A model generated the notes under the pieces. It saw only the letters and a list, made by a program, of their open reading frames with translations, was not told the origin of the DNA and ran no database searches. The translations under genes and the position numbers were made by a program. A stretch of 64,000 bases of DNA, from positions 1 to 64,000 of the IMG/VR virus record IMGVR_UViG_3300032323_000739, one strand, 5' to 3'. Of the stretch, positions 35,144 through 50,452 are shown one piece after another (within the stretch, counting starts at the first letter, position 1; the number at the start of each line of letters is the position of its first letter). This DNA is from a virus.

Positions 35144-36555
35144 TCACTAGCAAGTTAGAATATTGGCCTAAGATTAAAGATCAACTAGATCAAGTAGGAC
35201 CTGGATTTTGTTTGGCAAAATGGAATCAAGTAACAATTCATCTAGCCACAGGTCATACACATAGTTGTCATCATCCTAACACACATAAGATTCCTCTGCA
35301 AGAAATTGCCGCGGACCCTAGTGCATTACATAATACTCTATTCAAGAAACAACAACGCCAACGTATGTTAGACGGTGAACGTCCAGAAGAATGTAGTTAT
35401 TGCTGGAATGTTGAGGATAATGTTAAAGAAGCACATATATTCAGTGACCGTGTACAAAAAAGTGCAGAATCTTGGAGTCAGAATTTTGAAGAAGTGCTGG
35501 CTGCTGGCGCAGAAAATTTTAATCCTACCTATGTTGAAGTTAGTTTTAGTAATGTTTGCAATTTTAAATGTTCGTATTGTTCACCAGAAGTATCTAGCAA
35601 ATGGATGGAGGAGATAGAACAATATGGGGCTTATCCAACTAGCAACAAATTTAATAATATCGAATGGTTAAAAAGCATTGACAAAATGCCTATACCTAAC
35701 AAAGACTATAATCCTTATGTTAATGCGTTTTGGCACTGGTGGCCCGAGTTATATAAGACTCTAAAAGTGTTCCGTATTACTGGCGGCGAACCTTTATTAA
35801 GCAAAGATACGTTTAAAGTTTTAGATCATATCATAGAAAACCCTCGTCCTGAACTTGAACTAATGATTAACAGTAATCTCTGCATACCGGATGAATTGTT
35901 TAATAAGTTTGTAGAAAAGATGAAACGTATTCAAGGCGAAGGCATGATCAAAGACTTTACCTTGTTTACTAGTTGCGAAGCACACGGCGAGCGAGCAGAA
36001 TATATTCGCAACGGTTTAAATTATAACAAATGGTTAGATAATTGTTATACGTACTTGGACAAAGTACCAAATGGTCGTTTAGGTATAATGAGCACCTATA
36101 ATATTTTAAGTGTTACAAGTTACATGCCATTTATGAAAGACTTGTTAACACTAAACAAAACCTTTAATCATTATAAGGATAGAGTACATCCATTAATTTT
36201 TGATATTCCATACTTACGTTATCCAGAACATCTTAGTATGACTATCCTTACACCTGATTATCTTAAACAAGTCGAAGAACAAGTAACGTTTATGTATCAG
36301 AACCGTCAAACAGCAGATTGGCAACCTCTTGCTGGCAACGGTTTTTATGATTGGGAATGTAAAAAGTTAGAACGTGTTTATCATTTGCTAGAAAGCACTT
36401 TCAAAGTTGGCGAGCATCTACAACCAAGCACTGTAAATAAACGCAAAGATTTTGTACGTTTTGTTGACGAGCATGACCGTCGTCGTGGTACAAATTTCTT
36501 ACAAACCTTTCCAGAAATGGAAGAGTTCTACAACCTATGCAAGTCTTTAACATGA
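35140..36555 (+). CDS. Radical SAM protein with N-terminal twitch/SPASM-like Cys cluster
   Basis: CNFKCSYC (CxxxCxxC), TGGEP; N-terminal CLAKW...HSCHH...ECSYCW. Confidence 0.85.
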   Translation: MITSKLEYWPKIKDQLDQVGPGFCLAKWNQVTIHLATGHTHSCHHPNTHKIPLQEIAADPSALHNTLFKKQQRQRMLDGERPEECSYCWNVEDNVKEAHIFSDRVQKSAESWSQNFEEVLAAGAENFNPTYVEVSFSNVCNFKCSYCSPEVSSKWMEEIEQYGAYPTSNKFNNIEWLKSIDKMPIPNKDYNPYVNAFWHWWPELYKTLKVFRITGGEPLLSKDTFKVLDHIIENPRPELELMINSNLCIPDELFNKFVEKMKRIQGEGMIKDFTLFTSCEAHGERAEYIRNGLNYNKWLDNCYTYLDKVPNGRLGIMSTYNILSVTSYMPFMKDLLTLNKTFNHYKDRVHPLIFDIPYLRYPEHLSMTILTPDYLKQVEEQVTFMYQNRQTADWQPLAGNGFYDWECKKLERVYHLLESTFKVGEHLQPSTVNKRKDFVRFVDEHDRRRGTNFLQTFPEMEEFYNLCKSLT

Positions 36556-36983
36556 AATATATTAGTCATAGAGGAAATTTAAAAGGTCCTGAACCTGAAT
36601 TAGAAAATGAGCCAGGGTACATTCAGGACGCTTTAGATGCTGGATTTGATGTAGAAGTTGATGTTTGGTATGTAGATGAAAAATTTATGCTAGGGCATGA
36701 CGCACCTATATATGATGTAACCAAAAACTTTTTATTAGATAGTAGACTTTGGTGTCATGCTAAAACTCCCGAAGCATTAACAGCCATGTTAACAGCCGGA
36801 ATTCATTGCTTTTGGCATGAAAATGATGAAAGAACTTTAACTAGTCAGGGATTTATATGGACATATCCACACAAAAAATTAGTTGATCGTTCAGTAGTTG
36901 TAATTTTAGACAAGGAATTAAATCATGAGTATGTCTCACGAGCAGTTGCAGTCTGCGGTGACTACGTTCAATCCTGGCGCTAA
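36552..36983 (+). CDS. Small glycerophosphodiester phosphodiesterase (GDPD/PLC)-like protein
   Basis: ISHRGN...EN.....A...GFDVEVDVW...LGHD...WCHAK. Start at ATG 36552 (ATGA overlap). Confidence 0.7.
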   Translation: MKYISHRGNLKGPEPELENEPGYIQDALDAGFDVEVDVWYVDEKFMLGHDAPIYDVTKNFLLDSRLWCHAKTPEALTAMLTAGIHCFWHENDERTLTSQGFIWTYPHKKLVDRSVVVILDKELNHEYVSRAVAVCGDYVQSWR

Positions 36984-37734
36984 TAAAATTGCTATCTGTT
37001 TTAGTGGACAAATTCGCACATGGCGTCGATGCATAGACACATGGATTCATCTTTTAGAACATAATGGTTCTAGAGATAACATAGATGTTTTTTGTCATTT
37101 TTGGGATTTTAATACGGTACCAAACTCTGTGCCAGATCATCCTAAAGTATCTGCCAAGGTGGATACTGAAGAAATAAAAGAACTAATAGACATTTTAAAA
37201 CCTAAAAAATATATAATTGATTTTGCGCGAGAGTTCCCACTGTTTGATAAAAATCAAGCAATTACACACGGACCGTTTGTTAGTCAATTTTACGGAATCA
37301 TGAAAGCGGCAAATTTAAAACGTCAGTATGAGATTGAAAATCGCATGATGTATAAAGGTGTAGTACGTGCAAGGTATGACGCATACTATACTCACAATGT
37401 AACTGAGTTTTATAAAAATATTGCTCCTAATACTATGCACGGGTTTCATATGGGATGGAATCCTGATAACTTTAGAGGGCGTATGGGAGATATTTTTTGG
37501 ATTGCAGACAGTGACACTTATGATCTTATAGCAGACTACTATATCAATCTAGGCTACATGAATAAGAAATGGTTCACTGCTGATCAAACAGATGCCACTC
37601 CGGAATGGGTATTTTTTCATTACATTAAAAAGAATAATATCGATATACAAAATAATCATTGGGATATTAAACTAATGAGAGAAAACGCAGAACTTAGTTT
37701 TGCCAAGAAGGAGGGCGGCTTTGAAGTCTGGTAA
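36925..37734 (+). CDS. Putative glycosyltransferase-like protein (IAIC.SG..R family)
   Basis: KIAICFSGQIRT...DVFCHFW...SQFY....AN.K..YE...Y..VVR.R.D; RBS AAGGA; paralog of the next gene. Confidence 0.5.
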   Translation: MSMSHEQLQSAVTTFNPGANKIAICFSGQIRTWRRCIDTWIHLLEHNGSRDNIDVFCHFWDFNTVPNSVPDHPKVSAKVDTEEIKELIDILKPKKYIIDFAREFPLFDKNQAITHGPFVSQFYGIMKAANLKRQYEIENRMMYKGVVRARYDAYYTHNVTEFYKNIAPNTMHGFHMGWNPDNFRGRMGDIFWIADSDTYDLIADYYINLGYMNKKWFTADQTDATPEWVFFHYIKKNNIDIQNNHWDIKLMRENAELSFAKKEGGFEVW

Positions 37735-38455
37735 GATTGCTATCTGTATTAGCGGAATGCTACGAACAGGAATTCAAGCGTATCCTGTGTTTCGTAATTT
37801 TTTTGATTCTCTTGGCGAGTATGATATTTTTTATCATACCTGGAAGTTAGACTCATCAATATCTAATTTGTTAAAAACAACTTACAAACCTACAAGATTT
37901 TTAGAAGAAGATCCGCTTAATAATACTAAAGAAAGTTCGTTTGGTAGTATGTTATACAGTATAATGATGGCCAATGAACTTAAAAAACAATATGAGATTG
38001 AAAATAATTTCAGATATGATCTTGTAATTAAAACAAGGTTTGATCTTGTTTTTCCTAAGACTATTAAATTTCCTGTTGATGAAAATATATGGCCTAGAAC
38101 AATTTATAGTGTAAACGGAAATTGTGGTATAAATCATACTGATTATGAAAATCACGGTATTAGTGATGTAATATTTTGGGGAGATAGCCAAAGTATGGAC
38201 CTGGCAACTAATATTTACAGGCATTATAAGTACACTACCTTAGTTAAAGACATGTATTTGAGGGACGGCTGGAAAATGGATGTAAAAGATTACTATCTAA
38301 GTCCAGGTACTATGATTTATCAACGCACAGTTAAACAAAATATAGCACATGTTAGATTGCCGTCTATTGGAGAAGTTCCGTGGAGGGACGATGTTGCTGA
38401 GTTAGATCCAGTTAAAGATTACGATAAAATAAGAGAGAGATATGCAAAAGGTTAA
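37721..38455 (+). CDS. Putative glycosyltransferase-like protein, paralog of 36925-37734
   Basis: KIAICISGMLRT...DIFYHTW...SMLYS...ANELK..YE....YDLVIKTRFD. Likely TTG start at 37721 after GAAGGAGG. Confidence 0.5.
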   Translation: MKSGKIAICISGMLRTGIQAYPVFRNFFDSLGEYDIFYHTWKLDSSISNLLKTTYKPTRFLEEDPLNNTKESSFGSMLYSIMMANELKKQYEIENNFRYDLVIKTRFDLVFPKTIKFPVDENIWPRTIYSVNGNCGINHTDYENHGISDVIFWGDSQSMDLATNIYRHYKYTTLVKDMYLRDGWKMDVKDYYLSPGTMIYQRTVKQNIAHVRLPSIGEVPWRDDVAELDPVKDYDKIRERYAKG

Positions 38456-39260
38456 GACATTATTAGTAGATGGCGATAGTTGGACATACGGCAGTGAAAT
38501 ACGCGATCCCAAGTTGCCAGAAGAAGTAAAAGATTGGGACCCACCGAATGATGAATATCGATTACCGCGTATTTGGCCAACAAAGTTGGGAGAAATGTTA
38601 GGTGCTGACGAAGTGTTTAACATCAGTTATCCTGCATCTAGCAATGATGGAATAGTGCGAAGAACAGTAGGATGGATTACTCAAGAATATCTAAGCAAAG
38701 GTCGCGATACTAGCGATCTATTTGTAGTCATAGGATTTACTAGTCCAGAACGAAAAGATTTTTATTATCGTGACATTGACGACAAATATAAACACTTTTG
38801 GTACACACTTTGGCCAATGTGGAAACATCGTTATCCACAAGAGGAATTAAACAGATTTGCCGACATTTATGCTTCTTATATGTGGAACCCTGAAGAGTAT
38901 ACACATAGATATCTAAATCAAGTATTCTATTTGCAAACATTGTTTAATCATTACGGCATAAAACATTTATTTTTCCAAGCCTTTTATCAGCGTAATGATA
39001 TGCATATACGTCAGTGGACAGATGATCCATATAACAAACACTACAACGGACAACCAGATCAAATGGTTTGGGACATGATTGATCCTACACGATTTATGCA
39101 TAAGGATGACAAGATTCATAGTTTTCATAACTATATTTTAGATAAAGATACCAGCGAAGGAAAACGAAATAGTATTCTTAACATGCATCCTAGTGAATTA
39201 GGACATACATGGTGGGCCGAACACATTTATGAATACGGCAAAGGAAAAAAATTATGGTAA
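38442..39260 (+). CDS. SGNH/GDSL-fold esterase or acyltransferase-like protein
   Basis: DGDSWTYG block I, SN..I.R, G.T..ER, C-terminal HP...GH..WA. Confidence 0.65.
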   Translation: MQKVKTLLVDGDSWTYGSEIRDPKLPEEVKDWDPPNDEYRLPRIWPTKLGEMLGADEVFNISYPASSNDGIVRRTVGWITQEYLSKGRDTSDLFVVIGFTSPERKDFYYRDIDDKYKHFWYTLWPMWKHRYPQEELNRFADIYASYMWNPEEYTHRYLNQVFYLQTLFNHYGIKHLFFQAFYQRNDMHIRQWTDDPYNKHYNGQPDQMVWDMIDPTRFMHKDDKIHSFHNYILDKDTSEGKRNSILNMHPSELGHTWWAEHIYEYGKGKKLW

Positions 39261-40027
39261 AAGAAATTGTAGTTTGCGGGGATAGTTTTGGCTGCGGTTC
39301 GGGCATCCCCTTAGAATCTTGTTTTGAAGCATCTTTTGGTGGACAAGTCGCAGATCATTTTAATGTTCCTTTGAATGTGTATGCTAGATCGGGGTGTTGT
39401 AATTATGTGATATATCTGCAAGTTAAACAAGTAATTGAGGATTATCGTGCTAAAGAAAAACCATTTGTGTTAATATCAACAACTAATCACAGTCGATTTA
39501 CATTTCCTGTTGATACAACTTTAGGATATGTTAACTATACATTGGCTGATGTTGACTACGATAGTTATACTCCTTATTCTGAACATACAGGCCCAGGTCG
39601 TAGACCCAAGCCTATAGAAAATTTTAATAAACCTAAATTAATTAGTGAAACTGTTAGTAACATTTTATATTTTTTAGAACAAAATCCTGGAAATTTAGCA
39701 CCGTTGTTTTACAGTATTAAAAGAAAAATAAAAACTGTTGAGCTTTATTTTAGAGATTTGTACGATGACGAAATTAAACAAGTTAATGATACTGGTTTAA
39801 TATTATTAATGCACAACGAATTAAAAGAGGCCGGAATTCCGCATTTAATAATGACACCTAGTGAACACAGAGATCGTTTTATAGATAAAGAAAATTTCTT
39901 TTATAATAATTGGGGATACTATAGTCAAAAATATCCAGACTTGTACGGTAGCGGACATTGCACTGAAGTCGGTCACATGGAAGTAGCCAAAAAAATAATT
40001 AAACGAATAGAAGGAACGAGTTTGTGA
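39254..40027 (+). CDS. SGNH/GDSL-fold protein
   Basis: CGDSFG.G, ARSG.CN, C-terminal GH...GH..VA. Confidence 0.6.
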   Translation: MVKEIVVCGDSFGCGSGIPLESCFEASFGGQVADHFNVPLNVYARSGCCNYVIYLQVKQVIEDYRAKEKPFVLISTTNHSRFTFPVDTTLGYVNYTLADVDYDSYTPYSEHTGPGRRPKPIENFNKPKLISETVSNILYFLEQNPGNLAPLFYSIKRKIKTVELYFRDLYDDEIKQVNDTGLILLMHNELKEAGIPHLIMTPSEHRDRFIDKENFFYNNWGYYSQKYPDLYGSGHCTEVGHMEVAKKIIKRIEGTSL

Positions 40028-40710
40028 AATTAGTGTATGCTAACGGTGATAGTTGGACGCATGGTGACGAATTATCTGCGTTCGATGACATAGATCAAAC
40101 TTCTGTTCGATATTATAATTCTTGGCCGTGGAAATTATCTCAAATTTTAGACATTCCGGTATGTGTTAATGATGCACAAGGTGGCACAGGTAATTTACGT
40201 ATTTTTCGTAGAACTAACGAATTTATATATAGATGGATTGGTTCAGGAAAATCTGTCAGTGATTTATTAGTAGTAGTAGGATGGTCTACGCCCGAGCGTA
40301 CAGAAATTGGTGAAGGAAAAGGAATATATCCAATACAGATTCAGGGTCCTTTGTATTTTACAGATTTACCACGTGATGATGTTTCTTTAGAAAACTATCA
40401 TAAAGCATATTACGAAATATATTCAGACAGTTACGGAGAAAACTTAACAGCACTATATATGATGAATTTAAGAATGTTGTGCCAGGGATTAGGAATAAAA
40501 TATTTTGATTTTGTTGCTATAGGTAATCAACCTCAGCATTGGCAAGACTATATGAAATCAAAGTGGAATATAGAATTAACAAATATGTATATGAAAAGTA
40601 CCTGGAGTGCTGAAGTTTATAATAATAAATGGAGTAAACATAAGCACGGACATCCTACTAAAGAAACTCATGAACTATGGGCTAACATTTTAGCCAAGGA
40701 AATACAATGA
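40024..40710 (+). CDS. SGNH/GDSL-fold protein
   Basis: NGDSWTHG, GGTGN.RI.R, GWS..ER, HP....H..WA; GTG start. Confidence 0.65.
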   Translation: MKLVYANGDSWTHGDELSAFDDIDQTSVRYYNSWPWKLSQILDIPVCVNDAQGGTGNLRIFRRTNEFIYRWIGSGKSVSDLLVVVGWSTPERTEIGEGKGIYPIQIQGPLYFTDLPRDDVSLENYHKAYYEIYSDSYGENLTALYMMNLRMLCQGLGIKYFDFVAIGNQPQHWQDYMKSKWNIELTNMYMKSTWSAEVYNNKWSKHKHGHPTKETHELWANILAKEIQ

Positions 40711-41429
40711 ACATAATAATTGGACTATGCGGCCAAGGAAACCGATTTAAACAAGTAGGTTACGAATTGCCTAAATATCTTATTACGTATCATGGAGCAC
40801 CAATGATTTATCATAGTGTAGAAACTATAGGTATTAGAGGTAGAATACATTTTGTAGTAAGGAAAGAACATTTAGAACAATTTAATTTTTTAGAAAAAAT
40901 GTTGTTAGGGTTAGGAGACGAAATCATAACCATAAATGGTAACACACAAGGTGCCGCAGAAAGTTTATTATATACTAAGCCTTATATCAAAGATTTAAAT
41001 GCTCCTATGCTTAGTGTAAATGGTGACCAATTTATGGATTGGAAATCTTATCAATTTCAAGATGAAATACAACGGAATCCTGAAACAAGTTATATTGTAA
41101 CTTACAACGAAACTAGCCCTAAATGCAGTTATGTTCGAGAGGATCAAGATCGTGTTGTTGAAGTAAGAGAGAAACAAGTTATTAGTAACGACGCAACTAC
41201 GGGGTATTATCATTGGGCTCACACACATGATTTTTTTCAAGATGCTGAACAAATGATTAAAGAAGGACACAAAGAAAACGGAGAGTTTTATGTTGCTCCA
41301 GTTTATAATTATACTATTGCTAGAGGAAAAACAGTAAAAAAGTTTTCTATAAGTAATAAAGAGTTTTATCCAGTAGGCACTCCCGACGATTTAACAAAAT
41401 TTCAAAGACTAAGCACAAGGTTTGATTAA
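40707..41429 (+). CDS. Sugar-phosphate nucleotidyltransferase (NTP_transferase family)
   Basis: IIIGLCGQGNRF...GY.LPK.LI; T.GAA; NGDQ; V.EK..IS..AT.G.Y; GEFYVAPVYN; GTP.DL. Confidence 0.85.
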   Translation: MNIIIGLCGQGNRFKQVGYELPKYLITYHGAPMIYHSVETIGIRGRIHFVVRKEHLEQFNFLEKMLLGLGDEIITINGNTQGAAESLLYTKPYIKDLNAPMLSVNGDQFMDWKSYQFQDEIQRNPETSYIVTYNETSPKCSYVREDQDRVVEVREKQVISNDATTGYYHWAHTHDFFQDAEQMIKEGHKENGEFYVAPVYNYTIARGKTVKKFSISNKEFYPVGTPDDLTKFQRLSTRFD

Positions 41430-41764
41430 TGAAAAAAGCACACATTGATAACTTTATTAAAGGATGGTTCGTTGGAAATTTTGAACCTAGCCTACTTAAA
41501 GAAAATTTTGAAGTTGGTTTCCATCAGCACAAAGCAGGCGATTTTCATCAAGATCATTTTCATAAACACAGTACTGAAATTAACTTAGTAGTAGAGGGCA
41601 AAGTCAAAATAAACGGAGAAGTATTTAGGGCAGGTGACATCTTTGTTTTGGAGCCTTACGAAATTAGCCAATGCGAATATCTTACAGATGTTAAATTAGT
41701 TGTAGTACGGAATCTAAGCGACCCTAATGATAAGTTTGAAGTCCAAATAGTTGACAAAAAATAA
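41429..41764 (+). CDS. Cupin-domain protein (possible sugar epimerase/isomerase)
   Basis: GWFVGNF.P; H.H....E...V..G...ING.....GDI....P cupin motifs. Confidence 0.75.
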   Translation: MKKAHIDNFIKGWFVGNFEPSLLKENFEVGFHQHKAGDFHQDHFHKHSTEINLVVEGKVKINGEVFRAGDIFVLEPYEISQCEYLTDVKLVVVRNLSDPNDKFEVQIVDKK

Positions 41765-41795: not shown

Positions 41796-43028
41796 ATGAA
41801 ATTTTTTCGAGAACTAACTCAAACAGAAAAAGATCGTTGTGTTATTGCAACATATTATATTGAAACGTATTCTGACATAGGAGATTTACGCGATGCCGCT
41901 TGGAATCTTGCTATAGGTCAAAGTGTTGGAAATCCAAAAATACGAAATCAGTGGGAAACTGATGAATTGTTTGAAAGGTCATCCTGTGTGATTTATCACA
42001 ATGAATCAGAATTAACAGGCAAGCATAGTGGCACAATTAAGATTGGATTTCCTAAAATAAACTCCGATTGGCAAGGGGATGGCATCAGTCATCTTATGTG
42101 TCAATTAATGGGCGGCCAGATGGATATTAATGTGTTTAAAGCCTGCAGATTAAAACACATTGAGTTTCCTAAAGATGTCGAACAGCAATTTTTAGGACCT
42201 CGACAAGGTATTACGGGTATTAGAAAATTTGTTAATCGCTATGACAAACCTCTGTCAGGAGCCATTGTAAAACCTAAAACTGGCATTAGTCCTGCTACTC
42301 TAGCAGACATGGTTAAAGAATTAATAGACGGCGGTGTAGATTTTATCAAGGAAGACGAGATATTGTCTAACCCTAGTTTTTGTCGTTTAGAGGATCGTGT
42401 TGAATTAATTTCTAACATTGTTAATAATTGCGGTCGTGGAGTTATCTATTGCTTCTGTATTAATGGCGATCATCATACTATTCTTGACCGTGCTAAGTTT
42501 GTAGCCAACAATGGCGGTAACGGTATTCACATTAATTTCTGGAGCGGTCTAGGAGTTTATAATTCAATACGCAGATTAGATTTTCCATTGTTTATTCATT
42601 ACCAGAAGAGTGGTGATAAGATTCTTACAGACAAACGCAACCCGTTTGGTATTGATTGGTCAGTACTGTGTGACCTTGCTGGACTATGCGGTGTAGATAC
42701 TATTCATGCGGGCATGTGGGGAGGCTATTTAAGTGACAACGAAGATGAACTTAAATACACCATGGAAACTCTGCATAAACGAAATGTTCTTCCTGCACTA
42801 AGTTGTGGCATGCATCCTGGGATTGTTAATCCAACAGCAGAAAAATTTGGTACTGATTTTCTTGCTAACTGCGGCGGCGCTATACACGGGCACCCAGACG
42901 GTACTCTAGCCGGAGCATTAGCCATGCGTCAGGCCATTGACAAAACTCCTGGAAAAGAGTTTTTGACAGCAATAGAAAAATGGGGCTATGTAGGCGGTTC
43001 CTTACCCGAGTGGGTATTAGATTTTTAA
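41796..43028 (+). CDS. RuBisCO-like protein (form IV RLP), probably non-carboxylating
   Basis: GP..GI.G.R...PL.GAIVKPKTG, GGVDFIKEDE (carbamylated Lys and metal motif), DTIHAG, SCGMHPG, GGAIHGHPDG..AGA.AMRQA. The true start is 41796; the TTG at 41751 in the ORF track is the -35 box. Confidence 0.92.
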   Translation: MKFFRELTQTEKDRCVIATYYIETYSDIGDLRDAAWNLAIGQSVGNPKIRNQWETDELFERSSCVIYHNESELTGKHSGTIKIGFPKINSDWQGDGISHLMCQLMGGQMDINVFKACRLKHIEFPKDVEQQFLGPRQGITGIRKFVNRYDKPLSGAIVKPKTGISPATLADMVKELIDGGVDFIKEDEILSNPSFCRLEDRVELISNIVNNCGRGVIYCFCINGDHHTILDRAKFVANNGGNGIHINFWSGLGVYNSIRRLDFPLFIHYQKSGDKILTDKRNPFGIDWSVLCDLAGLCGVDTIHAGMWGGYLSDNEDELKYTMETLHKRNVLPALSCGMHPGIVNPTAEKFGTDFLANCGGAIHGHPDGTLAGALAMRQAIDKTPGKEFLTAIEKWGYVGGSLPEWVLDF

Positions 43029-43029
43029 T

Positions 43030-43989
43030 ATGGATATAATTGAACTAAAAGGCGGTAGTTTAAATTCAACTTGTTTATATGTTGACGGTGATCGCAAATT
43101 TGTAAGAAAAACTATTTCGACTACTGCCGATAGAGAATACGGCTATGTACGTTGGTACAGTCAATTAAAAAAATTACAAAGATTTAATCAGATAATTCCC
43201 CAGCACGTTCCTCGAGTTCTGGATGCTGGTGTGTGTGATAAAGGTGCATATTTTGACATTGAATATATTGATGCTAAAGATATTAAAACACTGTTTAAAG
43301 AAAATTTACTAGATGCCCACCAGACTGAAAAAATGCATCAACAGTTGTGGCAAGCGTTTGATACTTTACATCAACACACTTATCAACCAAACATTAGTAG
43401 TTTAAAACTTTATTTTCAGGAAGAAGTTTTACAAAAAATTAATGATGCTAGACAGTTTTCAGAGTTTGAAAACTTTTATCAAATGGATGTCTATGTACAT
43501 TGGGGAGAAACATTTAGTGGTATTAAACATAAATTAGAACAATTATCTAAGTTGTTTGATCAAGTTATAACTACAGAAAGTTACGTACACGGAAATCCAA
43601 CGCTAGAAAATATTCTTTACAGCGAAGAAACAGGTATAGTGTTTATTGACTTATATGAAGAAGGTATTGTAGACAGCAAGTTTATGGACTATAGTCAGAT
43701 ACTACAATGTAGTAGCAGTTACTACGGTATTCTTAATGACAGTGTGATACGTGTAAAAGGAAACGTTACAGGATTCGACACTAAGTTTCCAAAAAATTTA
43801 TTGTACTTCGATAAACTGTTTAATGAAGAATTAGAGCGTAGATTTACAAATCAGGAATATTTGTTGATAAGATTATTTGAAGCCACACAGTTTTTTCGTA
43901 TGTTGCCGTTTAAATGTCACGCTGGAAACATAGAAGCGGCAAAGTTTTTTTATGCTCATGCTTGCGCTCTCGTAAATAAACTATTATGA
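43030..43989 (+). CDS. Aminoglycoside-phosphotransferase/choline-kinase-like kinase
   Basis: LKGGS glycine loop, VRK, P.V, IEYI, Brenner-like HGNPTLENIL, FIDL. Confidence 0.7.
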   Translation: MDIIELKGGSLNSTCLYVDGDRKFVRKTISTTADREYGYVRWYSQLKKLQRFNQIIPQHVPRVLDAGVCDKGAYFDIEYIDAKDIKTLFKENLLDAHQTEKMHQQLWQAFDTLHQHTYQPNISSLKLYFQEEVLQKINDARQFSEFENFYQMDVYVHWGETFSGIKHKLEQLSKLFDQVITTESYVHGNPTLENILYSEETGIVFIDLYEEGIVDSKFMDYSQILQCSSSYYGILNDSVIRVKGNVTGFDTKFPKNLLYFDKLFNEELERRFTNQEYLLIRLFEATQFFRMLPFKCHAGNIEAAKFFYAHACALVNKLL

Positions 43990-45047
43990 CATGGCGTGTA
44001 AAGACTACCCTTCCTGTAGAGTTTGATATAGTCAAAGTACCTAATGCATTGGATTGGGACATAATTCCCGGTCAGCGTAGAATAGCCGTGGTTGATGAAA
44101 CAGTCTATGCTTTGTACAAAGACAAAATTCCCGCTGGCACAGAGATTTTTACAGTACGCAGTACAGAATCTGAAAAAGATTGGAAAAACGCCGAACGTGT
44201 TTTACAGTTTTTTCAAGATATAAAATTACTACGGAGAGAAACGGTTATTGCTGTAGGCGGTGGAGTTCTTTTAGACTTAGTAGGATTTTGTTGCAGTATA
44301 TATCGTAGAGGTGTTCCTTATGTTAGAATACCAACTACACTATTGGCTATTGTTGATGCTAGTGTAGGTGCAAAAACAAGCATTAATCATTTTGGGTTTA
44401 GAAATAGAATTGGTAGTTTTTATCCACCGACATTGACATTAATTGATAAGTCTTTTATTAAAACACAAGATCACAGAGAAATATCAAACGGCATGGCAGA
44501 AATTTTAAAGTTAGCCATAGTTCTTGATTATCAATTATTTGAATTAATTGAACTTAATCCGCAGGAATTACTAAGACTTAAATTTCAAAATTATGTGTTA
44601 GCAGATAAAATAATTGATCGTGCAATTTCGGGTATGACTGAAGAACTGAATGATAATCTTTGGGAACGAGACTTACAGCGTCCTGTAGATTTTGGACATA
44701 CATTTAGTCCTATGGTTGAAATGAAAAATGTTCCTAATTTGTTACATGGTGAAGCAGTAATGTTAGATTGTCTTTTAAGTGCTTGTATTAGTAATTTAAG
44801 AGGATATATCAGCAACGATCATTTACACCGTATTTTTAAAACTGTTCGCAGTTGTGACTTGCCTACAGAACACAAAGATTTTTATAATGTTGACCTGCTG
44901 TGGGCAGGTTTACAAGATGTAATGAACCATCGCAATGGTAATCAATATATACCTGTTCCTATAAGTATTGGCCGTTGCGAAATTATCAATGACGTAACAC
45001 GCAGTGAAATAGAACAGGCCTGCGACCGAATGAGAAGTATGCAATGA
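43986..45047 (+). CDS. Sedoheptulose 7-phosphate cyclase, 2-epi-5-epi-valiolone synthase (EEVS)-type (DHQS superfamily)
   Basis: GGGVLLDLVGF..SIYRRG.PY..IPTTL...DAS.G.K; metal ligands in AEILK, FGHTF and LHGEAV; EEVS-type MTEEL..NLWE...R.VDFGH. Confidence 0.82.
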   Translation: MTWRVKTTLPVEFDIVKVPNALDWDIIPGQRRIAVVDETVYALYKDKIPAGTEIFTVRSTESEKDWKNAERVLQFFQDIKLLRRETVIAVGGGVLLDLVGFCCSIYRRGVPYVRIPTTLLAIVDASVGAKTSINHFGFRNRIGSFYPPTLTLIDKSFIKTQDHREISNGMAEILKLAIVLDYQLFELIELNPQELLRLKFQNYVLADKIIDRAISGMTEELNDNLWERDLQRPVDFGHTFSPMVEMKNVPNLLHGEAVMLDCLLSACISNLRGYISNDHLHRIFKTVRSCDLPTEHKDFYNVDLLWAGLQDVMNHRNGNQYIPVPISIGRCEIINDVTRSEIEQACDRMRSMQ

Positions 45048-45718
45048 AAACAGTATTAATTACAGGTTCTAGTCGAGGGCTAGGTAAAGCACTGACAGAA
45101 ACATTTTTACAAAATGGATGGAAAGTTGTTGGAGTTAGTAGAACAGATTTAAAGAGTTATGACAACTATACACACATAGTTGCTGATGTGGCTAATATTG
45201 GCCAAGTCCATACTGCATTTGATCTACTTAAAAAAACTAAAACTAAAATTGATGTGTTAATAAACAATACGGCTGCTTTTCATATGGGCGACTTTGCAGA
45301 TTCAAAATATTTTGATATTGCGAATGTTATTGATACTAATGTAAAAGGCACAATGTATGTGACTAATCAAGCGTTAACAATAATGGAGCCAGGTTCAAAA
45401 GTTGTTTTTGTTAACAGTGTAGCAGGACTAAGAGAAATTCAACATCAGAGCATTTACTGTGCCAGCAAGGCTGCTTTAAAAAGTTTTGCCGGAGTGTTAG
45501 GCCAAGAACTTAGACAGAGGGGTATAAAAGTATCTAGTATACATCCAGGCGGCATTAACACAACCTTATGGAATGAAAATAATCCATATCCTTGCGGTGA
45601 TGTTACTAACGCTTTAGATCCACACCATCTTTCAGAAATGATCTATCGCATCTCGTCTGATACTAGTAATACTGAATACAAAACTATAACAATGTTTCCT
45701 GAAGTGGAGTGGCACTAA
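45044..45718 (+). CDS. Classical short-chain dehydrogenase/reductase
   Basis: TGSSRGLG, DVLINN, NSVAG, YCASK, HPGG..T. Confidence 0.9.
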   Translation: MKTVLITGSSRGLGKALTETFLQNGWKVVGVSRTDLKSYDNYTHIVADVANIGQVHTAFDLLKKTKTKIDVLINNTAAFHMGDFADSKYFDIANVIDTNVKGTMYVTNQALTIMEPGSKVVFVNSVAGLREIQHQSIYCASKAALKSFAGVLGQELRQRGIKVSSIHPGGINTTLWNENNPYPCGDVTNALDPHHLSEMIYRISSDTSNTEYKTITMFPEVEWH

Positions 45719-46413
45719 TGTACGACATAGTGTTTATCAGTTACGGTGAGCCTAATGCAGAAGCCAATTGGGAACGATTAAAAAATAGATATCCCTTGGC
45801 TAAACGTGTTACCAATGTGGCAGGAATTCATCAAGCACATATTGCCGCGGCTAAAAAAGCCTTTACTAAAATGGTTTGGGTAGTGGATGGCGATGCAGAG
45901 GTATTACCTACATTTAATTTTGACTACGAAGTTAGCGAATGGGATTTAGATGTAGTACATGTATGGCGCAGTCGTAATCCTATAAATGATTTAGAATACG
46001 GGTACGGCGGAGTAAAACTATTGCCACGTAAGTTAACGCTGGATATGGATATTTCTAAACCAGACATGACTACCAGTATTAGTACAAAATTTAAAGCAAT
46101 GGCTGAAGTTAGTAATATTACTGCTTTTAACACTGATCCGTTTAATACTTGGAAGAGTGCGTTTCGCGAGTGCGTTAAGTTAGCCAGTAAAGTTATAGAT
46201 GGACAAGTTGACACTGAAACTGAGCATAGGTTATTAGAGTGGTGTACCCCACACGTAGATAGATTGCACGGTAACTGGGCGTTTCTTGGCGCAGAGGATG
46301 GCAAAATGTACGGCATGCAAAAGGCCGGAGATTTAAAAGCACTAGGTAAAATAAATGATTTTGAATGGCTACGACAATTCTTTTCAAGATATCCCGTTCC
46401 ACCAAATAGTTAA
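45718..46413 (+). CDS. GT-A glycosyltransferase-like protein, paralog of 34247-35143
   Basis: DIVFISY.EPNA...GIH.AH..AA....WVVDGDA; TAATG coupling to the SDR. Confidence 0.65.
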   Translation: MYDIVFISYGEPNAEANWERLKNRYPLAKRVTNVAGIHQAHIAAAKKAFTKMVWVVDGDAEVLPTFNFDYEVSEWDLDVVHVWRSRNPINDLEYGYGGVKLLPRKLTLDMDISKPDMTTSISTKFKAMAEVSNITAFNTDPFNTWKSAFRECVKLASKVIDGQVDTETEHRLLEWCTPHVDRLHGNWAFLGAEDGKMYGMQKAGDLKALGKINDFEWLRQFFSRYPVPPNS

Positions 46414-47353
46414 ATTTGGTCAACGCACTATGCTTGAACGACCTTTGTTCAACGTAAGTTGGATACTAGGTCGTTTTTGTAATTATAATTGTAGTTACTG
46501 CTGGCCCTATGCTAGAAGTGATAAATTGGATCATCTAGATTATGAAACTTATACAAACACCGTTGACGAAATAAAACGTCAGGCACGTGAACAAGGCTTC
46601 ACTGATTTTCATTGGAGTTTTAGTGGCGGCGAACCTACAGCATATAAACGATTATTAGATTTAGTTAAACATTTAGACGATGGAGTAAAATCTCCTTATC
46701 AAAGTATCCACATGACTACTAATCTTAGTCCAGGAAGTAAGTGGTGGGGCACCTGGTGTAAAAATACTGAGATGCTACAACGCAGAAGTTTAACAGCCAG
46801 TTTCCATACAGAATTTGCACGTGAACAAGAATTTGGAGACAAATGTCTACAATTAAATTACGAAGGTGTTCATGTAACAGTAAATCAGGTAATGGTTCCA
46901 GAATTGTTCTGGGACACCTATGCACGATGCGAACGTCTATACAAACGAGGTATAAATGTAACACTAAAACCTCAAAGCGATCCTACGGCTAGTTTTGTAG
47001 TCAGTGGTTACGATGACAAAATGTTAGAGGTTATGCAAACAGGATTTCCGCAATTATCGAGTGGCGAGCAGTTGTATCAGGTAGCATTATTTGACGAGTT
47101 AGGGCACGAATATTTGTTTGATCAAGCCGAAAGATTTAACGCATTTGGTTTTAACAAATTTCAAAATTGGACTTGCAATGCTGGCTATCAAAGTGTTATA
47201 ATAAGAAGCAACGAAGTTAAACGTAGTTATAGTTGTCACGATGAATCATTAGGAACTTTGATAAGCGGATTTAAATTATTTGACAGTCCTAAAAAATGTA
47301 TAACTCCAACTTGTGTTAGTTCGGCAGATAGTAAAATACCAAAAATAAAATGA
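46355..47353 (+). CDS. Radical SAM protein
   Basis: CNYNCSYC, SGGEPT; C-terminal CNAG...SC...C....C Cys cluster. Confidence 0.85.
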   Translation: MILNGYDNSFQDIPFHQIVKFGQRTMLERPLFNVSWILGRFCNYNCSYCWPYARSDKLDHLDYETYTNTVDEIKRQAREQGFTDFHWSFSGGEPTAYKRLLDLVKHLDDGVKSPYQSIHMTTNLSPGSKWWGTWCKNTEMLQRRSLTASFHTEFAREQEFGDKCLQLNYEGVHVTVNQVMVPELFWDTYARCERLYKRGINVTLKPQSDPTASFVVSGYDDKMLEVMQTGFPQLSSGEQLYQVALFDELGHEYLFDQAERFNAFGFNKFQNWTCNAGYQSVIIRSNEVKRSYSCHDESLGTLISGFKLFDSPKKCITPTCVSSADSKIPKIK

Positions 47354-48021: not shown

Positions 48022-48602
48022 ATACAGAACATTTACACCACTGGATGAGAGCAATTCGATCTAGCAAAGATCCTATACGTACCATGGATGCTTTTTGGAG
48101 AGGCCAAATTCTTAGTAAAGAATGGTTAATAGACAATATTAAACCGTTTGTCAATCAAGAAGTGTCTATAGACATACATGGCGGGTGGGTAGGAGTGTTA
48201 TCTAGTATGTTGTTTCAATCTGGCTTATCTATTAAACATATTCGTAGTATCGACATAGATCCAGACTGCAAGGATATAGCATCTAATATGAATCAGATAG
48301 AACTAGAACAAGGAAGATTTAGAGCTGTCACAGCAGATATGTGTACTATTCGCAGTGATGCAGATATTATAATTAATACTAGTTGTGAACACATTACACA
48401 AGATCAATACGACACTTGGTCAATAGGACATCCTAACAACAGTCTATTGGTATTACAGAGCAACAACTACAGCATTCCTGAACACGTTAGGCCTGCTCAA
48501 GATTTAGAAGAATTTAAATCTCAATGTGATGTAAATGTATTATGGGCAGGAGAATTAGAACTACCCCTGTACAAGCGATTTATGATTATAGGAACTAGAT
48601 GA
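48012..48602 (+). CDS. Class I SAM-dependent methyltransferase-like protein
   Basis: IHGGWVG motif I, SIDIDP, ADM, IINTSCEH. Confidence 0.65.
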   Translation: MQIDTEHLHHWMRAIRSSKDPIRTMDAFWRGQILSKEWLIDNIKPFVNQEVSIDIHGGWVGVLSSMLFQSGLSIKHIRSIDIDPDCKDIASNMNQIELEQGRFRAVTADMCTIRSDADIIINTSCEHITQDQYDTWSIGHPNNSLLVLQSNNYSIPEHVRPAQDLEEFKSQCDVNVLWAGELELPLYKRFMIIGTR

Positions 48603-49468
48603 TGAACAAACATTTTATTGAAATAGCACAATTTTACATGACTAATGTTTGTAATCTTACCTGTAATAATTGCTGTACTTTCAATAATAGAAGATTTTCG
48701 GGACACTATAAATTTAACGATTATCGAGATCATTATATTGAGTGGTCAAAAAAAGTTGATTTAGATTTTATGAGTATCCTAGGTGGAGAACCGTATGCTA
48801 ATCCAGATTTACCAAATTGGATAGATGGTCTCAGATCCTGCTGGCCAGATAACAAAAATTTTAGTATTTGTACAAACGGATCTTATCTCTCTACCTTCAA
48901 AGAATTGTCAAGAGATGCAATAAAAAAGGGATTATGGTTAGAAATAAATGTTCACGATCCTAATCAATATGATGATATTAAAAACAATTTGTTAGAAATT
49001 ATCAGTGTCTTTAATTATGAAGAAAAAGTTATACCTGATAAATTTCATGTAGATCATCTTGAATACTATGCTGACGGTATAAAAATAGCTCAAATAGTCA
49101 AATATTATAATTTTTTTAATTCAGCAACTACAGAGATTAAAAATAGAGTAACGTATTTTCATAATAGTAATCCAGAAATTGCTCACAGTGCTTGTTCAGC
49201 ATTTGATTGTCATTATTTTGTAAGAGGCGAACTTTATAAATGTTTTTTAACAGCAGTGGGAAGAGATTTAAATCAGCAATTTTTGATAGAGGATCGTGCT
49301 AAAACTCTTCTAGAAAACTATCAGGCCTGCTCACCGTGGTCTTCGGACGAACAAATTAAACAATTTATGAACAATATTAAAACCCCAATATCTCAATGTA
49401 GTCTTTGTCCAGAAAAATTAAATTTACAGCCTATATGGCCTTTAGAAAAGACCAAAATTAAATTGTAG
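48599..49468 (+). CDS. Radical SAM protein
   Basis: CNLTCNNC, LGGEP, TNG; C-terminal C...C....G.LYKC and C..CP. Confidence 0.85.
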   Translation: MMNKHFIEIAQFYMTNVCNLTCNNCCTFNNRRFSGHYKFNDYRDHYIEWSKKVDLDFMSILGGEPYANPDLPNWIDGLRSCWPDNKNFSICTNGSYLSTFKELSRDAIKKGLWLEINVHDPNQYDDIKNNLLEIISVFNYEEKVIPDKFHVDHLEYYADGIKIAQIVKYYNFFNSATTEIKNRVTYFHNSNPEIAHSACSAFDCHYFVRGELYKCFLTAVGRDLNQQFLIEDRAKTLLENYQACSPWSSDEQIKQFMNNIKTPISQCSLCPEKLNLQPIWPLEKTKIKL

Positions 49469-49528: not shown

Positions 49529-50452
49529 ATGAAAATTTTAATGACCGGAACCAGTGGATTTATCGGATCACATCTTAAACCACTGATTGAAAAAAATCAT
49601 ACTTTTTACTCTCTTAAAAGCGATTTGTTAGATTTTGAAGCAGTAACCAAAGAAGTATTAGATTTTAAACCAGATGTCATAGTACACCTTGGTGCTCGTA
49701 CAGAAGTTGAAAAAAGTTTTTATGAGCAAATAACATTTAGTCAAATTAATTATGTTGGTAGCGTCAACTTAATCGAAGCGGCTAGCAAAGTAGAGAATTT
49801 TAAAAATTTTGTTTTTGCCAGTACCATGGAAGTGTATGGCTGGCAACCTATTAGCGACGAAATTAAAGATAACGGTCAACCTTTAAATCATGTTGCGTTT
49901 GATGAAAATACCGAACCTCACCCTAATGCTCCCTATGCTGTAGCCAAATACGGTGTAGAAAAATATCTTGAATATATGCATCGTAGTTGCGGCTTTCCTT
50001 TTAGTGCCATTCGTCAGACTAATAGTTATGGTCGTAAAGATAATGATTTCTTTGTTGTAGAACAAATTATTACACAGATGTTAAAAAATCCTAATGAGGT
50101 AAATTTTGGTTATGCCGAGCCTTTTCGCAATTTTATTTTTATTGATGATTTACTTGCCGCTTGGATGACATTAATAGAAGATCCTAACATCGGTAAAACA
50201 GGAAAAATTTTTACAGTAGGACCAGACAATCCTATCAAGATAAAAGATCTAGCCAGCATTATTGCTAAGAAACTAAACTGGAACGGTGCAATTAACTGGA
50301 ATAAAAAACCTAAGCGTCAGGGAGAAATTTACTGGTTAAACAGCAACCATAATCTTTTAACTAAACACACTGGGTGGACTCCTAAGGTTAGTTTAAATGA
50401 CGGCATTGATCGAACTATAGAAATTTGGAGAAACATTTTACATGTTAAATGA
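49529..50452 (+). CDS. NAD-dependent nucleotide-sugar epimerase/dehydratase (extended SDR)
   Basis: TGTSGFIG, D.IVHL.A, STMEVYG, YAVAK, RNFIFIDD. Confidence 0.9.
   Translation: MKILMTGTSGFIGSHLKPLIEKNHTFYSLKSDLLDFEAVTKEVLDFKPDVIVHLGARTEVEKSFYEQITFSQINYVGSVNLIEAASKVENFKNFVFASTMEVYGWQPISDEIKDNGQPLNHVAFDENTEPHPNAPYAVAKYGVEKYLEYMHRSCGFPFSAIRQTNSYGRKDNDFFVVEQIITQMLKNPNEVNFGYAEPFRNFIFIDDLLAAWMTLIEDPNIGKTGKIFTVGPDNPIKIKDLASIIAKKLNWNGAINWNKKPKRQGEIYWLNSNHNLLTKHTGWTPKVSLNDGIDRTIEIWRNILHVK

What the first reader, a model, noticed from the sequence alone, without database searches (positions are those of the whole stretch)
41796..43028. RLP active site keeps the enolisation machinery but has lost the carboxylation residues
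Seen, by eye against spinach RbcL numbering. Kept: K175/K177 (KPKTG), K201 with D203/E204 (FIKEDE, 202 is E), H327 (DTIHAG), S379/G381 (SCG) and G403/G404. Apparently replaced: E60 (IGQSVG), N123 (MGGQM), H294/R295 (HYQK) and loop-6 K334 (WGGYL). Established: these losses are incompatible with RuBP carboxylation. Characterised RLPs act in methionine salvage or apiose/hamamelose catabolism, and none of those partner genes is visible here. Inference: an anabolic RLP subfamily. It should not be annotated as a CO2-fixation auxiliary gene.
Basis: partly seen in the sequence, partly recalled or inferred. Interest (0 to 1): 0.8.

Follow-up and report, generated by a model that had tools for sequence, protein, structure and literature searches.

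The report
Phage RuBisCO-like enzyme for sugar activation
A large freshwater phage carries a RuBisCO relative that cannot fix CO2 and is always paired with, and sometimes fused to, a sugar-activating enzyme, so it probably helps build an unusual surface-sugar donor.

Summary
Window 41796-43028 (+) is an intact 410-aa RuBisCO large-subunit homologue (Pfam E 2.5e-43; AF2 pLDDT 94.5; TM 0.85-0.87 to form III). Kept: K175, K177, K201, D203, E204, H327, S379, G381, G403/G404. Replaced: E60G, T65N, N123G, H294Q, R295K, H298D, K334Y, G380C. Nearly all of these states are invariant in 118 relatives at 35-97% identity, which form one clade (SH-aLRT 99) outside the bona fide, MtnW and OiaX clades.

The context is new. 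All 77 loci with at least 4 kb on both flanks (SAR11, DPANN archaea, Verrucomicrobiota, Legionella, many viral contigs) have one nucleotidyltransferase (NTase) family beside the RLP. RLP-NTase and miniGDPD-RLP fusions exist. Neighbours are glycosyltransferases, methyltransferases and, in Legionella, LicD. In cultured cyanophages the same NTase clade is instead fused to RpiB, RibB or a HAD domain.

Best reading (about 0.7): an enolising isomerase on a pentulose phosphate, feeding an NDP-linked glycan donor; it is not a CO2-fixation gene. The kinase, EEVS-like and SDR genes next to it are lineage-specific (8 loci).

Phage RLPs were reported in 2019 without a function. I found no paper on the NTase link. 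The scan had noted this stretch before, in another window of the same genome. Substrate and product are untested.

The parts
41796..43028 (+). RuBisCO-like protein, 410 aa. Family signature in spinach numbering: G60, N65, G123, K175, K177, K201, E202, D203, E204, Q294, K295, D298, H327, Y334, S379, C380, G381.
   Evidence: Pfam PF00016 E 2.5e-43. Residue map and conservation. AF2 pLDDT 94.5. Foldseek TM 0.85-0.87 to form III RuBisCO. Monophyletic clade, SH-aLRT 99. dN/dS 0.04.
40707..41429 (+). Nucleotidyltransferase (NDP-sugar pyrophosphorylase fold). It is the universal partner of the RLP.
   Evidence: PF00483 E 8.5e-8. PDB 4evw E 4e-17. phrog_3980 E 3e-49. Within 6 kb of the RLP in 113/120 loci, within 450 bp on the same strand in 102/113, and present in all 77 loci with at least 4 kb flanks. 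Natural RLP-NTase fusion P0123.
41429..41764 (+). Small metal-type cupin, 111 aa, with an HxH..E motif. Frequent module member.
   Evidence: Found in 74/120 loci. Invariant H43 and E50, near-invariant H45. Profile hits to quercetinase YxaG (E 8e-6) and a cupin mannose-6-P isomerase. phrog_24762 E 4e-33. 44% identical to cyanophage Bellamy gp095, which follows the NTase-RpiB fusion.
36537..36983 (+). Minimal GDPD-like phosphodiesterase, 148 aa. It is a module member that lies 4.8 kb upstream here; it usually sits directly after the RLP.
   Evidence: Found in 76/120 loci. Conserved HRG..E.D..GHD motif. Profile hit to GDPD 3i10, E 7e-5. AF2 pLDDT 95.4. Top Foldseek hits are all GDPDs. Natural miniGDPD-RLP fusion P0159.
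36925..38455 (+). Two tandem paralogues (36925-37734 and 37700-38455) of an ORF cluster whose other members match DUF7796. Frequent viral neighbour of the module; function unknown.
   Evidence: The cluster is within 6 kb of the RLP in 38 viral loci. A cluster representative hits PF25072, E 4e-10. The window copies themselves gave no Pfam hit but hit phrog_13607, E 1e-11. A homologue follows the cupin in Bellamy.
43030..45718 (+). APH/fructosamine-type kinase, DHQS-like sugar-phosphate cyclase (EEVS candidate) and SDR. This is a lineage-specific insertion next to the module, not a conserved partner.
   Evidence: Pfam and NCBIfam hits. Present with the RLP in only 8 viral loci.
49529..50452 (+). 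NAD-dependent NDP-sugar epimerase/dehydratase. Recurrent neighbour.
   Evidence: PF01370 E 2e-37. The same cluster is near the RLP in 33 loci.

Best explanation
The gene encodes a catalytically active form-IV RuBisCO-like protein. It keeps the Mg2+/carbamate enolisation core (K175, K177, K201, D203, E204) and one backbone-glycine phosphate site (G381, G403, G404). It has lost everything specific to CO2 addition, hydration and cleavage (E60, N123, H294, K334), and the distal-phosphate site is altered (R295K, H298D).

It works as the sugar-phosphate-converting half of a two-enzyme cassette whose other half is a dedicated NTase. The RLP enolises a keto-sugar monophosphate and re-protonates it to give an isomer (carbonyl migration or epimerisation). 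The substrate is most probably D-ribulose 5-phosphate or a close pentulose phosphate, that is, RuBP minus one phosphate. The invariant Y334, C380 and Q294 are candidate proton-transfer residues. The NTase then links the phosphate to NMP, giving an NDP (possibly CDP) donor. Glycosyl- or phosphotransferases encoded nearby use that donor to decorate a surface glycan. The small cupin, the minimal GDPD and the DUF7796-family proteins are accessory tailoring or transfer steps.

In this jumbo freshwater myophage the cassette sits in a glycan-type biosynthetic island of about 20 kb, downstream of the tail-fibre genes.

Shown: fold, residue pattern, clade, synteny, fusions, neighbour families. Inferred: catalysis by enolisation, pentulose-phosphate substrate, order of steps, nucleotide used, fate of the product. 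My odds: about 0.7 that it is anabolic and NTase-coupled; about 0.35 that the substrate derives from Ru5P.
For: Fold and site. Pfam, AF2 and Foldseek all give the RuBisCO large-subunit fold. The active-site pattern is near-invariant over 118 sequences at 35-97% identity, and dN/dS is 0.04.

Clade. The signature family is monophyletic (SH-aLRT 99) and separate from the MtnW, OiaX and bona fide clades. It falls below all NCBIfam equivalog cut-offs.

Coupling to the NTase. The NTase lies within 6 kb in 113/120 loci and within 450 bp on the same strand in 102/113. It is present in all 77 loci with at least 4 kb flanks, across Pelagibacterales, Woese-/Nano-/Micrarchaeota, Verrucomicrobiota, Elusimicrobiota, Spirochaetota, Bacteroidota, Legionellaceae, Francisellaceae and viral contigs. 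The 667-aa RLP-NTase fusion has 128 members in its 90% cluster, with full-length copies from Tara, MGnify, JGI and ENA. A miniGDPD-RLP fusion also exists.

Anabolic context. SAR11 loci carry GT17, GT61 and RmlD-like genes. LicD lies divergently upstream in the four Legionellaceae loci, three Legionella and one Tatlockia. Viral loci carry GT2/GT25, GT11, WavE and FkbM methyltransferases. Among 112 dereplicated cellular neighbours the top Pfam families are glycosyltransferases, methyltransferases, DegT and NDP-sugar epimerases.

Substrate class. NTase domains nested inside the clade of RLP-adjacent NTases are fused in cultured cyanophages to RpiB (Bellamy, then the same cupin and a DUF7796 protein), to DHBP synthase RibB (S-SKS1) and to a beta-PGM-type HAD domain (S-CAM9). 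RpiB and RibB act on ribose-5-P or ribulose-5-P.

Known RLP partner genes are absent from the record.
Against: No biochemical datum exists for any member. Synteny and fusion show coupling, not chemistry or order of steps.

The pentulose-phosphate idea rests on non-homologous partner replacement. The three cyanophage partners (RpiB, RibB, HAD) need not yield the same NTase substrate.

The NTase resembles anomeric sugar-1-phosphate NTases about as weakly as it resembles alditol- or choline-phosphate ones. The type of donor is therefore open.

Which phosphate site survives cannot be read from sequence: K295 and H327 could still bind a distal phosphate.

The role of the GDPD-like protein is unexplained.

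IMG/VR 'viral' contigs may include some cellular island fragments.

My tree used named references only for form I, MtnW and OiaX. Named DeepYkr and Photo references were not available.
Confidence: 0.7

Rival explanations
1. The order is reversed. The NTase first makes an NDP-ketose (as in CDP-6-fructose-type pathways), and the RLP isomerises the nucleotide-linked sugar. The GDPD-like enzyme may then process the phosphodiester.
For: Fusions and adjacency are equally compatible with either order. The closure elements over the P1 site are remodelled (E60G, T65N, K334Y), which could make room for a nucleotide. A GDPD-type enzyme acts on phosphodiesters.
Against: No known RuBisCO-superfamily enzyme acts on a nucleotide-linked substrate (established knowledge). 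The alternative partners RpiB and RibB act on free pentose phosphates. Two-gene RLP+NTase loci lack the GDPD.
Confidence: 0.15
2. The RLP belongs to the adjacent kinase / EEVS-like cyclase / SDR genes and helps build an NDP-C7-cyclitol (pseudo-sugar). This was proposed in another first-stage note on this stretch.
For: In this window the genes are contiguous and co-oriented: NTase, cupin, RLP, kinase, DHQS-like cyclase, SDR.
Against: Kinase, cyclase and SDR accompany the RLP in only 8 of 120 loci, all close viral relatives. The NTase accompanies it in every locus with adequate flanks. The canonical order NTase-cupin-RLP-miniGDPD is interrupted here: the GDPD gene sits 4.8 kb upstream, which looks like an insertion of a second cassette.
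Confidence: 0.08
3. It is a salvage enzyme like the Rhodospirillum rubrum RLP. It would isomerise 5-methylthio- or 5-deoxy-ribulose 1-phosphate made from radical-SAM or polyamine by-products, with the cupin acting like MTXu-5-P methylsulfurylase.
For: An RLP followed by a cupin is the arrangement of the R. rubrum MTA-isoprenoid shunt (PMC6302742). The window island holds three radical-SAM genes and an APH-family kinase, the same superfamily as MtnK.
Against: The IF-2B/MtnA isomerase that makes such ketose 1-phosphates is absent from the phage record, from the complete Pelagibacter chromosome and from the Verrucomicrobiae chromosome-level MAG assembly, both of which carry the module. Salvage does not explain universal NTase coupling or the glycosyltransferase context. 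The cupin is missing from many loci.
Confidence: 0.06
4. It is a CO2-fixing or otherwise RuBP-dependent auxiliary metabolic gene, or a non-catalytic relic.
For: Source databases name it 'ribulose-bisphosphate carboxylase large chain'. The closest solved structures are form III RuBisCOs.
Against: E60, N123, H294 and K334 are all replaced. There is no small subunit, PRK or AMP-pathway gene in the record. The site is under strict conservation with dN/dS 0.04, so it is not a relic.
Confidence: 0.01

Closest known systems
Phage 'Form IV-like' RLPs (Jaffe et al. 2019, Mol Biol Evol, PMC6389311) and the ocean-sampling RuBisCO-homologue clades (Yooseph et al. 2007, PMC1821046; IV-GOS of Tabita et al. 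2007)
   Same: Divergent RLPs on large myovirus-type phage contigs from IMG/VR and in ocean metagenomes, with key residues only partly conserved and no function assigned. This gene very probably belongs to that group.
   Different: Those papers give no gene context or function. Identity of the clades could not be tested because their sequences and supplements are not held. The NTase coupling, the fusions and the SAR11, DPANN and Legionella members are not mentioned in them.
Form III RuBisCO (P. horikoshii 2cwx/2d69, T. kodakarensis 1geh/3a12)
   Same: Closest solved structures: E 5e-43, 28% identity, TM 0.85-0.87. Same two-domain fold. K175, K177, K201, D203, E204, H327, S379 and G381 are shared.
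   Different: E60, T65, N123, H294, R295, H298 and K334 are replaced. The protein scores 206 bits against the 497-bit TIGR03326 cut-off. It lies outside the bona fide clade.
MtnW/YkrW 2,3-diketo-5-methylthiopentyl-1-phosphate enolase
   Same: An RLP that uses the carbamate/Mg2+ core only to enolise a monophosphorylated keto compound. This is the mechanistic model for the present protein.
   Different: Separate clade. It scores 159 against a 409-bit cut-off. MtnW has K at the N123 position and V at K177, where this family has G and K. No mtnA, mtnB or mtnX nearby.
Rhodospirillum rubrum RLP (MTRu-1-P 1,3-isomerase) with its cupin MTXu-5-P methylsulfurylase
   Same: An RLP performing carbonyl migration by successive enolisations, followed by a cupin enzyme. 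The product DXP ultimately feeds a cytidylyltransferase, IspD (PMC6302742; the IspD step is established knowledge).
   Different: Catabolic or salvage logic, and no adjacent NTase. MtnA is absent from two carrier genomes that have a complete chromosome record. Homology of the two cupins was not tested.
OiaX/OiaC RLPs of D-apiose catabolism
   Same: Form IV proteins at about 30% identity.
   Different: They keep H294, R295 and K334 and sit with transporters and four-carbon acid-sugar kinases. This protein scores 152 against a 700-bit cut-off. Different clade.
Cyanophage NTase fusions: Bellamy gp096 (NTase-RpiB), S-SKS1 SWZG_00042 (NTase-RibB), S-CAM9 gp067 (HAD-NTase)
   Same: Same NTase clade, the same cupin and a DUF7796 neighbour in Bellamy, and the same glycosyltransferase-island setting.
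   Different: The sugar-phosphate-converting partner is RpiB, RibB or HAD instead of an RLP. None of the 50,697 GenBank phage records encodes the RLP.
CDP-ribitol / CDP-alcohol donor systems (TarI/TarJ, LicC/LicD, FKTN/FKRP)
   Same: A pentulose-5-phosphate-derived unit is nucleotidylated on a non-anomeric phosphate and transferred as a phospho-unit by a LicD-family enzyme (established knowledge). LicD lies next to RLP-NTase in Legionella.
   Different: No reductase is conserved in the module. The nucleotide specificity and the nature of the phosphate ester are unknown. LicD is absent from the phage record.

Membership tests
RuBisCO large-subunit superfamily | Catalytic TIM-barrel domain (PF00016) over the curated cut-off | tested here: met
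   148.9 bits against a cut-off of 30.1, E 2.5e-43.
RuBisCO large-subunit superfamily | N-terminal alpha/beta domain plus barrel, i.e. the whole-chain fold | tested here: met
   PF02788 is just under its cut-off (19.1 against 20.7). The AF2 model (pLDDT 94.5) aligns over 410-440 columns to form III chains at TM 0.85-0.87.
Bona fide RuBisCO (forms I-III) | Complete catalytic set E60, N123, K175, K177, K201, D203, E204, H294, K334 | tested here: not met
   E60G, N123G, H294Q and K334Y, each 118/118 in the family.
Bona fide RuBisCO (forms I-III) | Score over an NCBIfam equivalog cut-off, and placement in the bona fide clade | tested here: not met
   206 against 497 (form III), 192 against 438, 114 against 489. 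Separate clade.
Form IV RuBisCO-like proteins | RuBisCO homologue with substitutions at residues essential for carboxylation | tested here: met
Form IV RuBisCO-like proteins | No RuBP carboxylase activity | not testable with these tools
   Needs a 14CO2 fixation assay.
MtnW/YkrW enolase | Equivalog score, clade membership and methionine-salvage neighbours | tested here: not met
   159 against 409 and 124 against 514 bits. Separate clade. No IF-2B or class II aldolase in the record.
OiaX/OiaC apiose-pathway RLPs | Equivalog score, clade membership and a four-carbon acid-sugar kinase neighbour | tested here: not met
   152 against 700 bits. Separate clade. No SBD_N kinase domain in the record.
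DeepYkr MTRu-1-P isomerase (R. rubrum type) | Clade membership, and an MtnA-type source of MTRu-1-P in the genome | tested here: inconclusive
   No named DeepYkr reference was available for the tree. IF-2B is absent from 2 of 5 carrier genomes searched, the complete Pelagibacter chromosome and the Verrucomicrobiae chromosome-level MAG assembly.
Phage 'Form IV-like' RLP clade (Jaffe et al. 2019) | Encoded on large myovirus-type phage contigs, highly divergent from other RLPs, key residues partly kept | tested here: met
   Baseplate and tail genes lie on the same contig. The record is 89 kb at about 24% completeness. 254 IMG/VR contigs carry relatives.
Phage 'Form IV-like' RLP clade (Jaffe et al. 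2019) | Same phylogenetic clade as their sequences | not testable with these tools
   Their sequences and supplements are not held.

The most novel reading that the evidence does not exclude
This would be the first biosynthetic RuBisCO-like protein. The enzyme would take ribulose 5-phosphate (RuBP minus one phosphate) and, by enolisation chemistry inherited from RuBisCO, make a rare keto or rearranged pentose phosphate. Its fused or adjacent NTase would turn that into a previously unknown NDP-linked donor. The donor would be used by SAR11, DPANN archaea, Legionella and their jumbo phages to decorate surface glycans. It would therefore be a widespread determinant of phage-host recognition in oceans and lakes.
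Probability: 0.3. Interest if true: 0.8.

Novelty: new variant of a known kind. Interest (0 to 1): 0.62.

Why it matters
RLP clades seen only in environmental and phage sequence have had no function since 2007 and 2019. They are still auto-annotated as 'ribulose-bisphosphate carboxylase large chain', which inflates counts of viral carbon-fixation genes.

The strict coupling to one NTase family, the natural fusions and the glycan-island context give a concrete hypothesis: RLP plus NTase plus pentose phosphates plus NTPs. There are culturable carriers in which to test it (Legionella nautarum, L. drozanskii, L. maceachernii, Azospirillum oleiclasticum).

If confirmed, RuBisCO-superfamily chemistry would extend from CO2 fixation and salvage or catabolism to nucleotide-sugar biosynthesis. 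It would also point to an uncharacterised sugar in the surface glycans of very abundant aquatic microbes.

Tried and rejected
Context came from the search for related loci and search_dna_similar instead.
- tblastn of the RLP against 50,697 GenBank phage records found nothing. PHROGs has no RLP family.
- Literature searches linking RuBisCO-like proteins with nucleotidyltransferase, cytidylyltransferase, polysaccharide or nucleotide sugar found no relevant paper. One broad search was uninformative.
- Tabita et al. 2007 is not held and the Jaffe 2019 supplements are not held. Identity with IV-GOS or 'IV-like' could not be tested.
- Cluster names for the sister and outgroup representatives were uninformative.
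- The ESM Atlas added nothing beyond family names for the NTase and the DUF7796-family protein. A PDB sequence search with the DUF7796-family protein gave only insignificant hits.
- Rejected: a link to the EEVS cassette as the general explanation (8 of 120 loci).
- Rejected: MTA or 5'-deoxyadenosine salvage as the general explanation (MtnA absent from two carrier genomes with a complete chromosome record).
- Rejected: pseudogene or relic (dN/dS 0.04).
Full report
**1. What is there**

The window is part of an 89-kb IMG/VR virus record that CheckV estimates at 24% complete. Genes at 1-31 kb are myovirus baseplate, wedge and tail-fibre genes. The wedge protein is 36% identical to that of the jumbo phage Atu_ph07, and there is a 4472-aa ORF. 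From about 31.6 to 52 kb runs a co-oriented block of small biosynthetic genes.

The finding is the ORF at 41796-43028 (+). The ATG has an AAGGA Shine-Dalgarno sequence, and homologues of 396-412 aa start at the same point. The protein is therefore 410 aa. It matches PF00016 at E 2.5e-43. An AF2 model has pLDDT 94.5 and superposes on form III RuBisCOs at TM 0.85-0.87 and 28% identity.

**2. The observation**

I aligned 118 family members with an annotated form I large subunit, an MtnW and an OiaX taken from plasmid records. The HMMER alignments to P. horikoshii and T. kodakarensis form III agree with that alignment.
- Kept: K175, K177, K201, D203, E204, H327, S379, G381, G403, G404.
- Replaced: E60G, N123G, H294Q, R295K, K334Y.
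- Additional replacements: T65N, H298D, G380C, D202E, G405A.

The pattern is a family signature, not decay. G60, N65, G123, Q294, Y334 and C380 are 118/118 over sequences as low as 35% identical. K295 and D298 are 115/118. dN/dS against the nearest viral copy is 0.04. K177, which is lost in the MtnW, OiaX and related RLPs compared here, is kept.

**3. Family placement**

The protein is below all NCBIfam cut-offs: form III 206 against 497, MtnW 159 against 409, OiaX 152 against 700. No solved RLP scores better than E 3e-36.

An exhaustive HMMER scan of 1.84 billion cluster representatives gave 1464 hits at E up to 1e-3 and 90 at E up to 1e-30. In an IQ-TREE of 137 sequences (quick search, LG+G4) the signature-bearing sequences form one clade (SH-aLRT 99). 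That clade is separate from the clades holding form I and the bona fide signatures, MtnW, and OiaX. A weakly attached sister group of five unnamed sequences shares only Y334.

Members come from:
- Pelagibacterales, in two subtypes at 64% and 45% identity;
- Woese-, Nano- and Micrarchaeota;
- Verrucomicrobiota, Elusimicrobiota, Spirochaetota, Bacteroidota and Balneolota;
- Azospirillum, Legionella and Francisellaceae;
- 254 IMG/VR contigs.

None of 50,697 GenBank phage records has it.

**4. Context, the main new result**

I called ORFs in 120 loci and clustered them.
- One NTase family (window 40707-41429) lies within 6 kb of the RLP in 113 loci and within 450 bp on the same strand in 102 of those 113.
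- The loci that lack it are truncated. The one exception, L029, has it by tblastn. So all 77 loci with at least 4 kb on both sides have it.
- A 148-aa protein (window 36537-36983) occurs in 76 loci and a 111-aa cupin (41429-41764) in 74.
- The usual viral order is NTase-cupin-RLP-148aa.

The 148-aa protein carries the GDPD motif HRG..E.D..GHD. It hits GDPD structures by profile, and its model (pLDDT 95.4) finds only GDPDs at the top. The cupin has an HxH..E metal motif.

Two natural fusions tie the parts together. The first is a 667-aa RLP-NTase protein. It has 128 members in its 90% cluster, with many full-length copies from independent sources. The second is a miniGDPD-RLP protein.

By contrast, the kinase, DHQS/EEVS-like cyclase and SDR that follow the RLP in this window occur with it in only 8 loci.

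**5. Anabolic setting**

- Around the module in SAR11 lie GT17, GT61 and RmlD-like genes.
- In the four Legionellaceae loci (three Legionella, one Tatlockia) a LicD phosphotransferase sits divergently upstream.
- In viral loci there are GT2/GT25, GT11, WavE, FkbM methyltransferases and DUF7796-family proteins.
- Among 112 dereplicated neighbours from 20 cellular loci the commonest families are glycosyltransferases, methyltransferases, radical SAM, DegT and NDP-sugar epimerases. No transporter or catabolic kinase is among the 25 commonest families shown.
- The characterised catabolic RLPs on plasmids sit instead with TRAP transporters and four-carbon acid-sugar kinases.
- MtnA, MtnB, acid-sugar kinase and LicD families are absent from the phage record.

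**6. What the substrate may be**

PHROGs has families for the NTase, the cupin and the miniGDPD but none for the RLP. In cultured cyanophages the same NTase is fused to other enzymes:
- RpiB in Bellamy, followed by the same cupin (44% identity) and a DUF7796 protein;
- DHBP synthase RibB in S-SKS1;
- a beta-PGM-type HAD domain in S-CAM9.

All three sit in glycosyltransferase islands. In an NTase tree these domains nest among the RLP-adjacent NTases. S-CAM9 is 64% identical to the SAR11 copy, and Bellamy groups with the DPANN and SAR11 copies at SH-aLRT 95.

RpiB and RibB both act on ribose-5-P or ribulose-5-P (established knowledge). The RLP therefore looks like a non-homologous alternative for supplying this NTase from a pentose phosphate. 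Ribulose 5-phosphate, which is RuBP lacking one phosphate, is the natural candidate, and this fits the altered distal-phosphate residues.

A methylthio- or deoxy-ribulose 1-phosphate substrate is less likely as a general answer. MtnA is missing from the complete Pelagibacter chromosome and from the Verrucomicrobiae chromosome-level MAG assembly, both of which carry the module.

**7. Mechanism proposed**

This section is inference. Carbamylated K201 with Mg2+ (bound by D203 and E204), K175 and K177 generate an enediolate. With K334, N123, E60 and H294 gone, no CO2 adduct can be stabilised or hydrated. The enediolate is instead re-protonated, with the invariant Y334, C380 and Q294 as candidate proton-transfer residues, to give an isomer. 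The NTase then makes the NDP derivative, and glycosyl- or phosphotransferases use it. LicD points to a CDP-alcohol-type donor in Legionella.

The reverse order (NTase first) cannot be excluded. The roles of the cupin, the GDPD and the DUF7796-family proteins are open.

**8. Known or new**

Phage 'Form IV-like' RLPs on large myovirus contigs were reported in 2019 with 'functionality unclear' (PMC6389311). Unassigned RuBisCO-homologue clades were reported in ocean metagenomes in 2007 (PMC1821046). This gene most likely belongs to those groups, so the existence of the clade is not new.

I found no paper that connects it to an NTase or to glycan synthesis. I class it as a new functional variant of a known kind.

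**9. Habitat**

Near-identical DNA is held, besides the probable source sample, by a freshwater metagenome run from another study that holds 0.53 of the sampled words. Several other runs hold smaller shares. No RNA holder was listed.

Noticed in passing
window 36537-36983: A 148-aa protein with the full GDPD catalytic motif and a confident model (pLDDT 95.4). The model aligns across whole GDPD chains of 217-250 residues, so it looks like a stripped-down phosphodiesterase barrel. It occurs in 76 of 120 RLP loci and is fused to the RLP in P0159.
   Followed up: partly
L126:6001-7428, L127:5992-7149, L128:5341-6726: Cultured cyanophages S-SKS1, Bellamy and S-CAM9 encode the same NTase fused to DHBP synthase (RibB), RpiB and a HAD_2 domain respectively. 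GenBank annotates them simply as 'DHBP synthase', 'phosphatase' and 'pyrophosphorylase'.
   Followed up: partly
P0195, P0271, P0160/P0172 (hits): Other RuBisCO-superfamily fusions turned up in the representative search: TIR_2 plus a RuBisCO-like protein (583 aa), a RuBisCO-like protein plus an APH-type kinase (1265 aa), and IF-2B (ribose-1,5-bisphosphate isomerase type) plus RuBisCO (726 and 742 aa).
   Followed up: no
window 10753-24171: A single 4472-aa ORF lies between the baseplate wedge gene and the tail-fibre genes.
   Followed up: no
window 43986-45047: A DHQS-family sugar-phosphate cyclase (aroB model 215 bits against a 305-bit cut-off, so not AroB proper). It is flanked by an APH-type kinase and an SDR and forms a separate cassette shared with only 8 related viral contigs.
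   Followed up: partly
L001 (WTHI01000081.1, 4.6 kb): A contig binned to a Methanobacteriota MAG carries NTase-cupin-RLP-miniGDPD in the phage order. Its RLP is 78% identical to the window's and nests among viral copies. It is probably a misbinned viral fragment.
   Followed up: no
L014, L018 (Pelagibacteraceae single-cell genomes): In a second SAR11 subtype of the module the RLP is flanked by two divergent NTase paralogues (miniGDPD-NTase-RLP-NTase). DPANN loci carry up to three NTase copies nearby.
   Followed up: no
window 35140-36555, 46355-47353, 48599-49468: Three radical-SAM genes lie in the same island. Several neighbouring ORFs of about 250-300 aa (31935-35143, 39254-40027) have no family match, and two carry DUF6071 (38442-39260, 40024-40710).
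   Followed up: no
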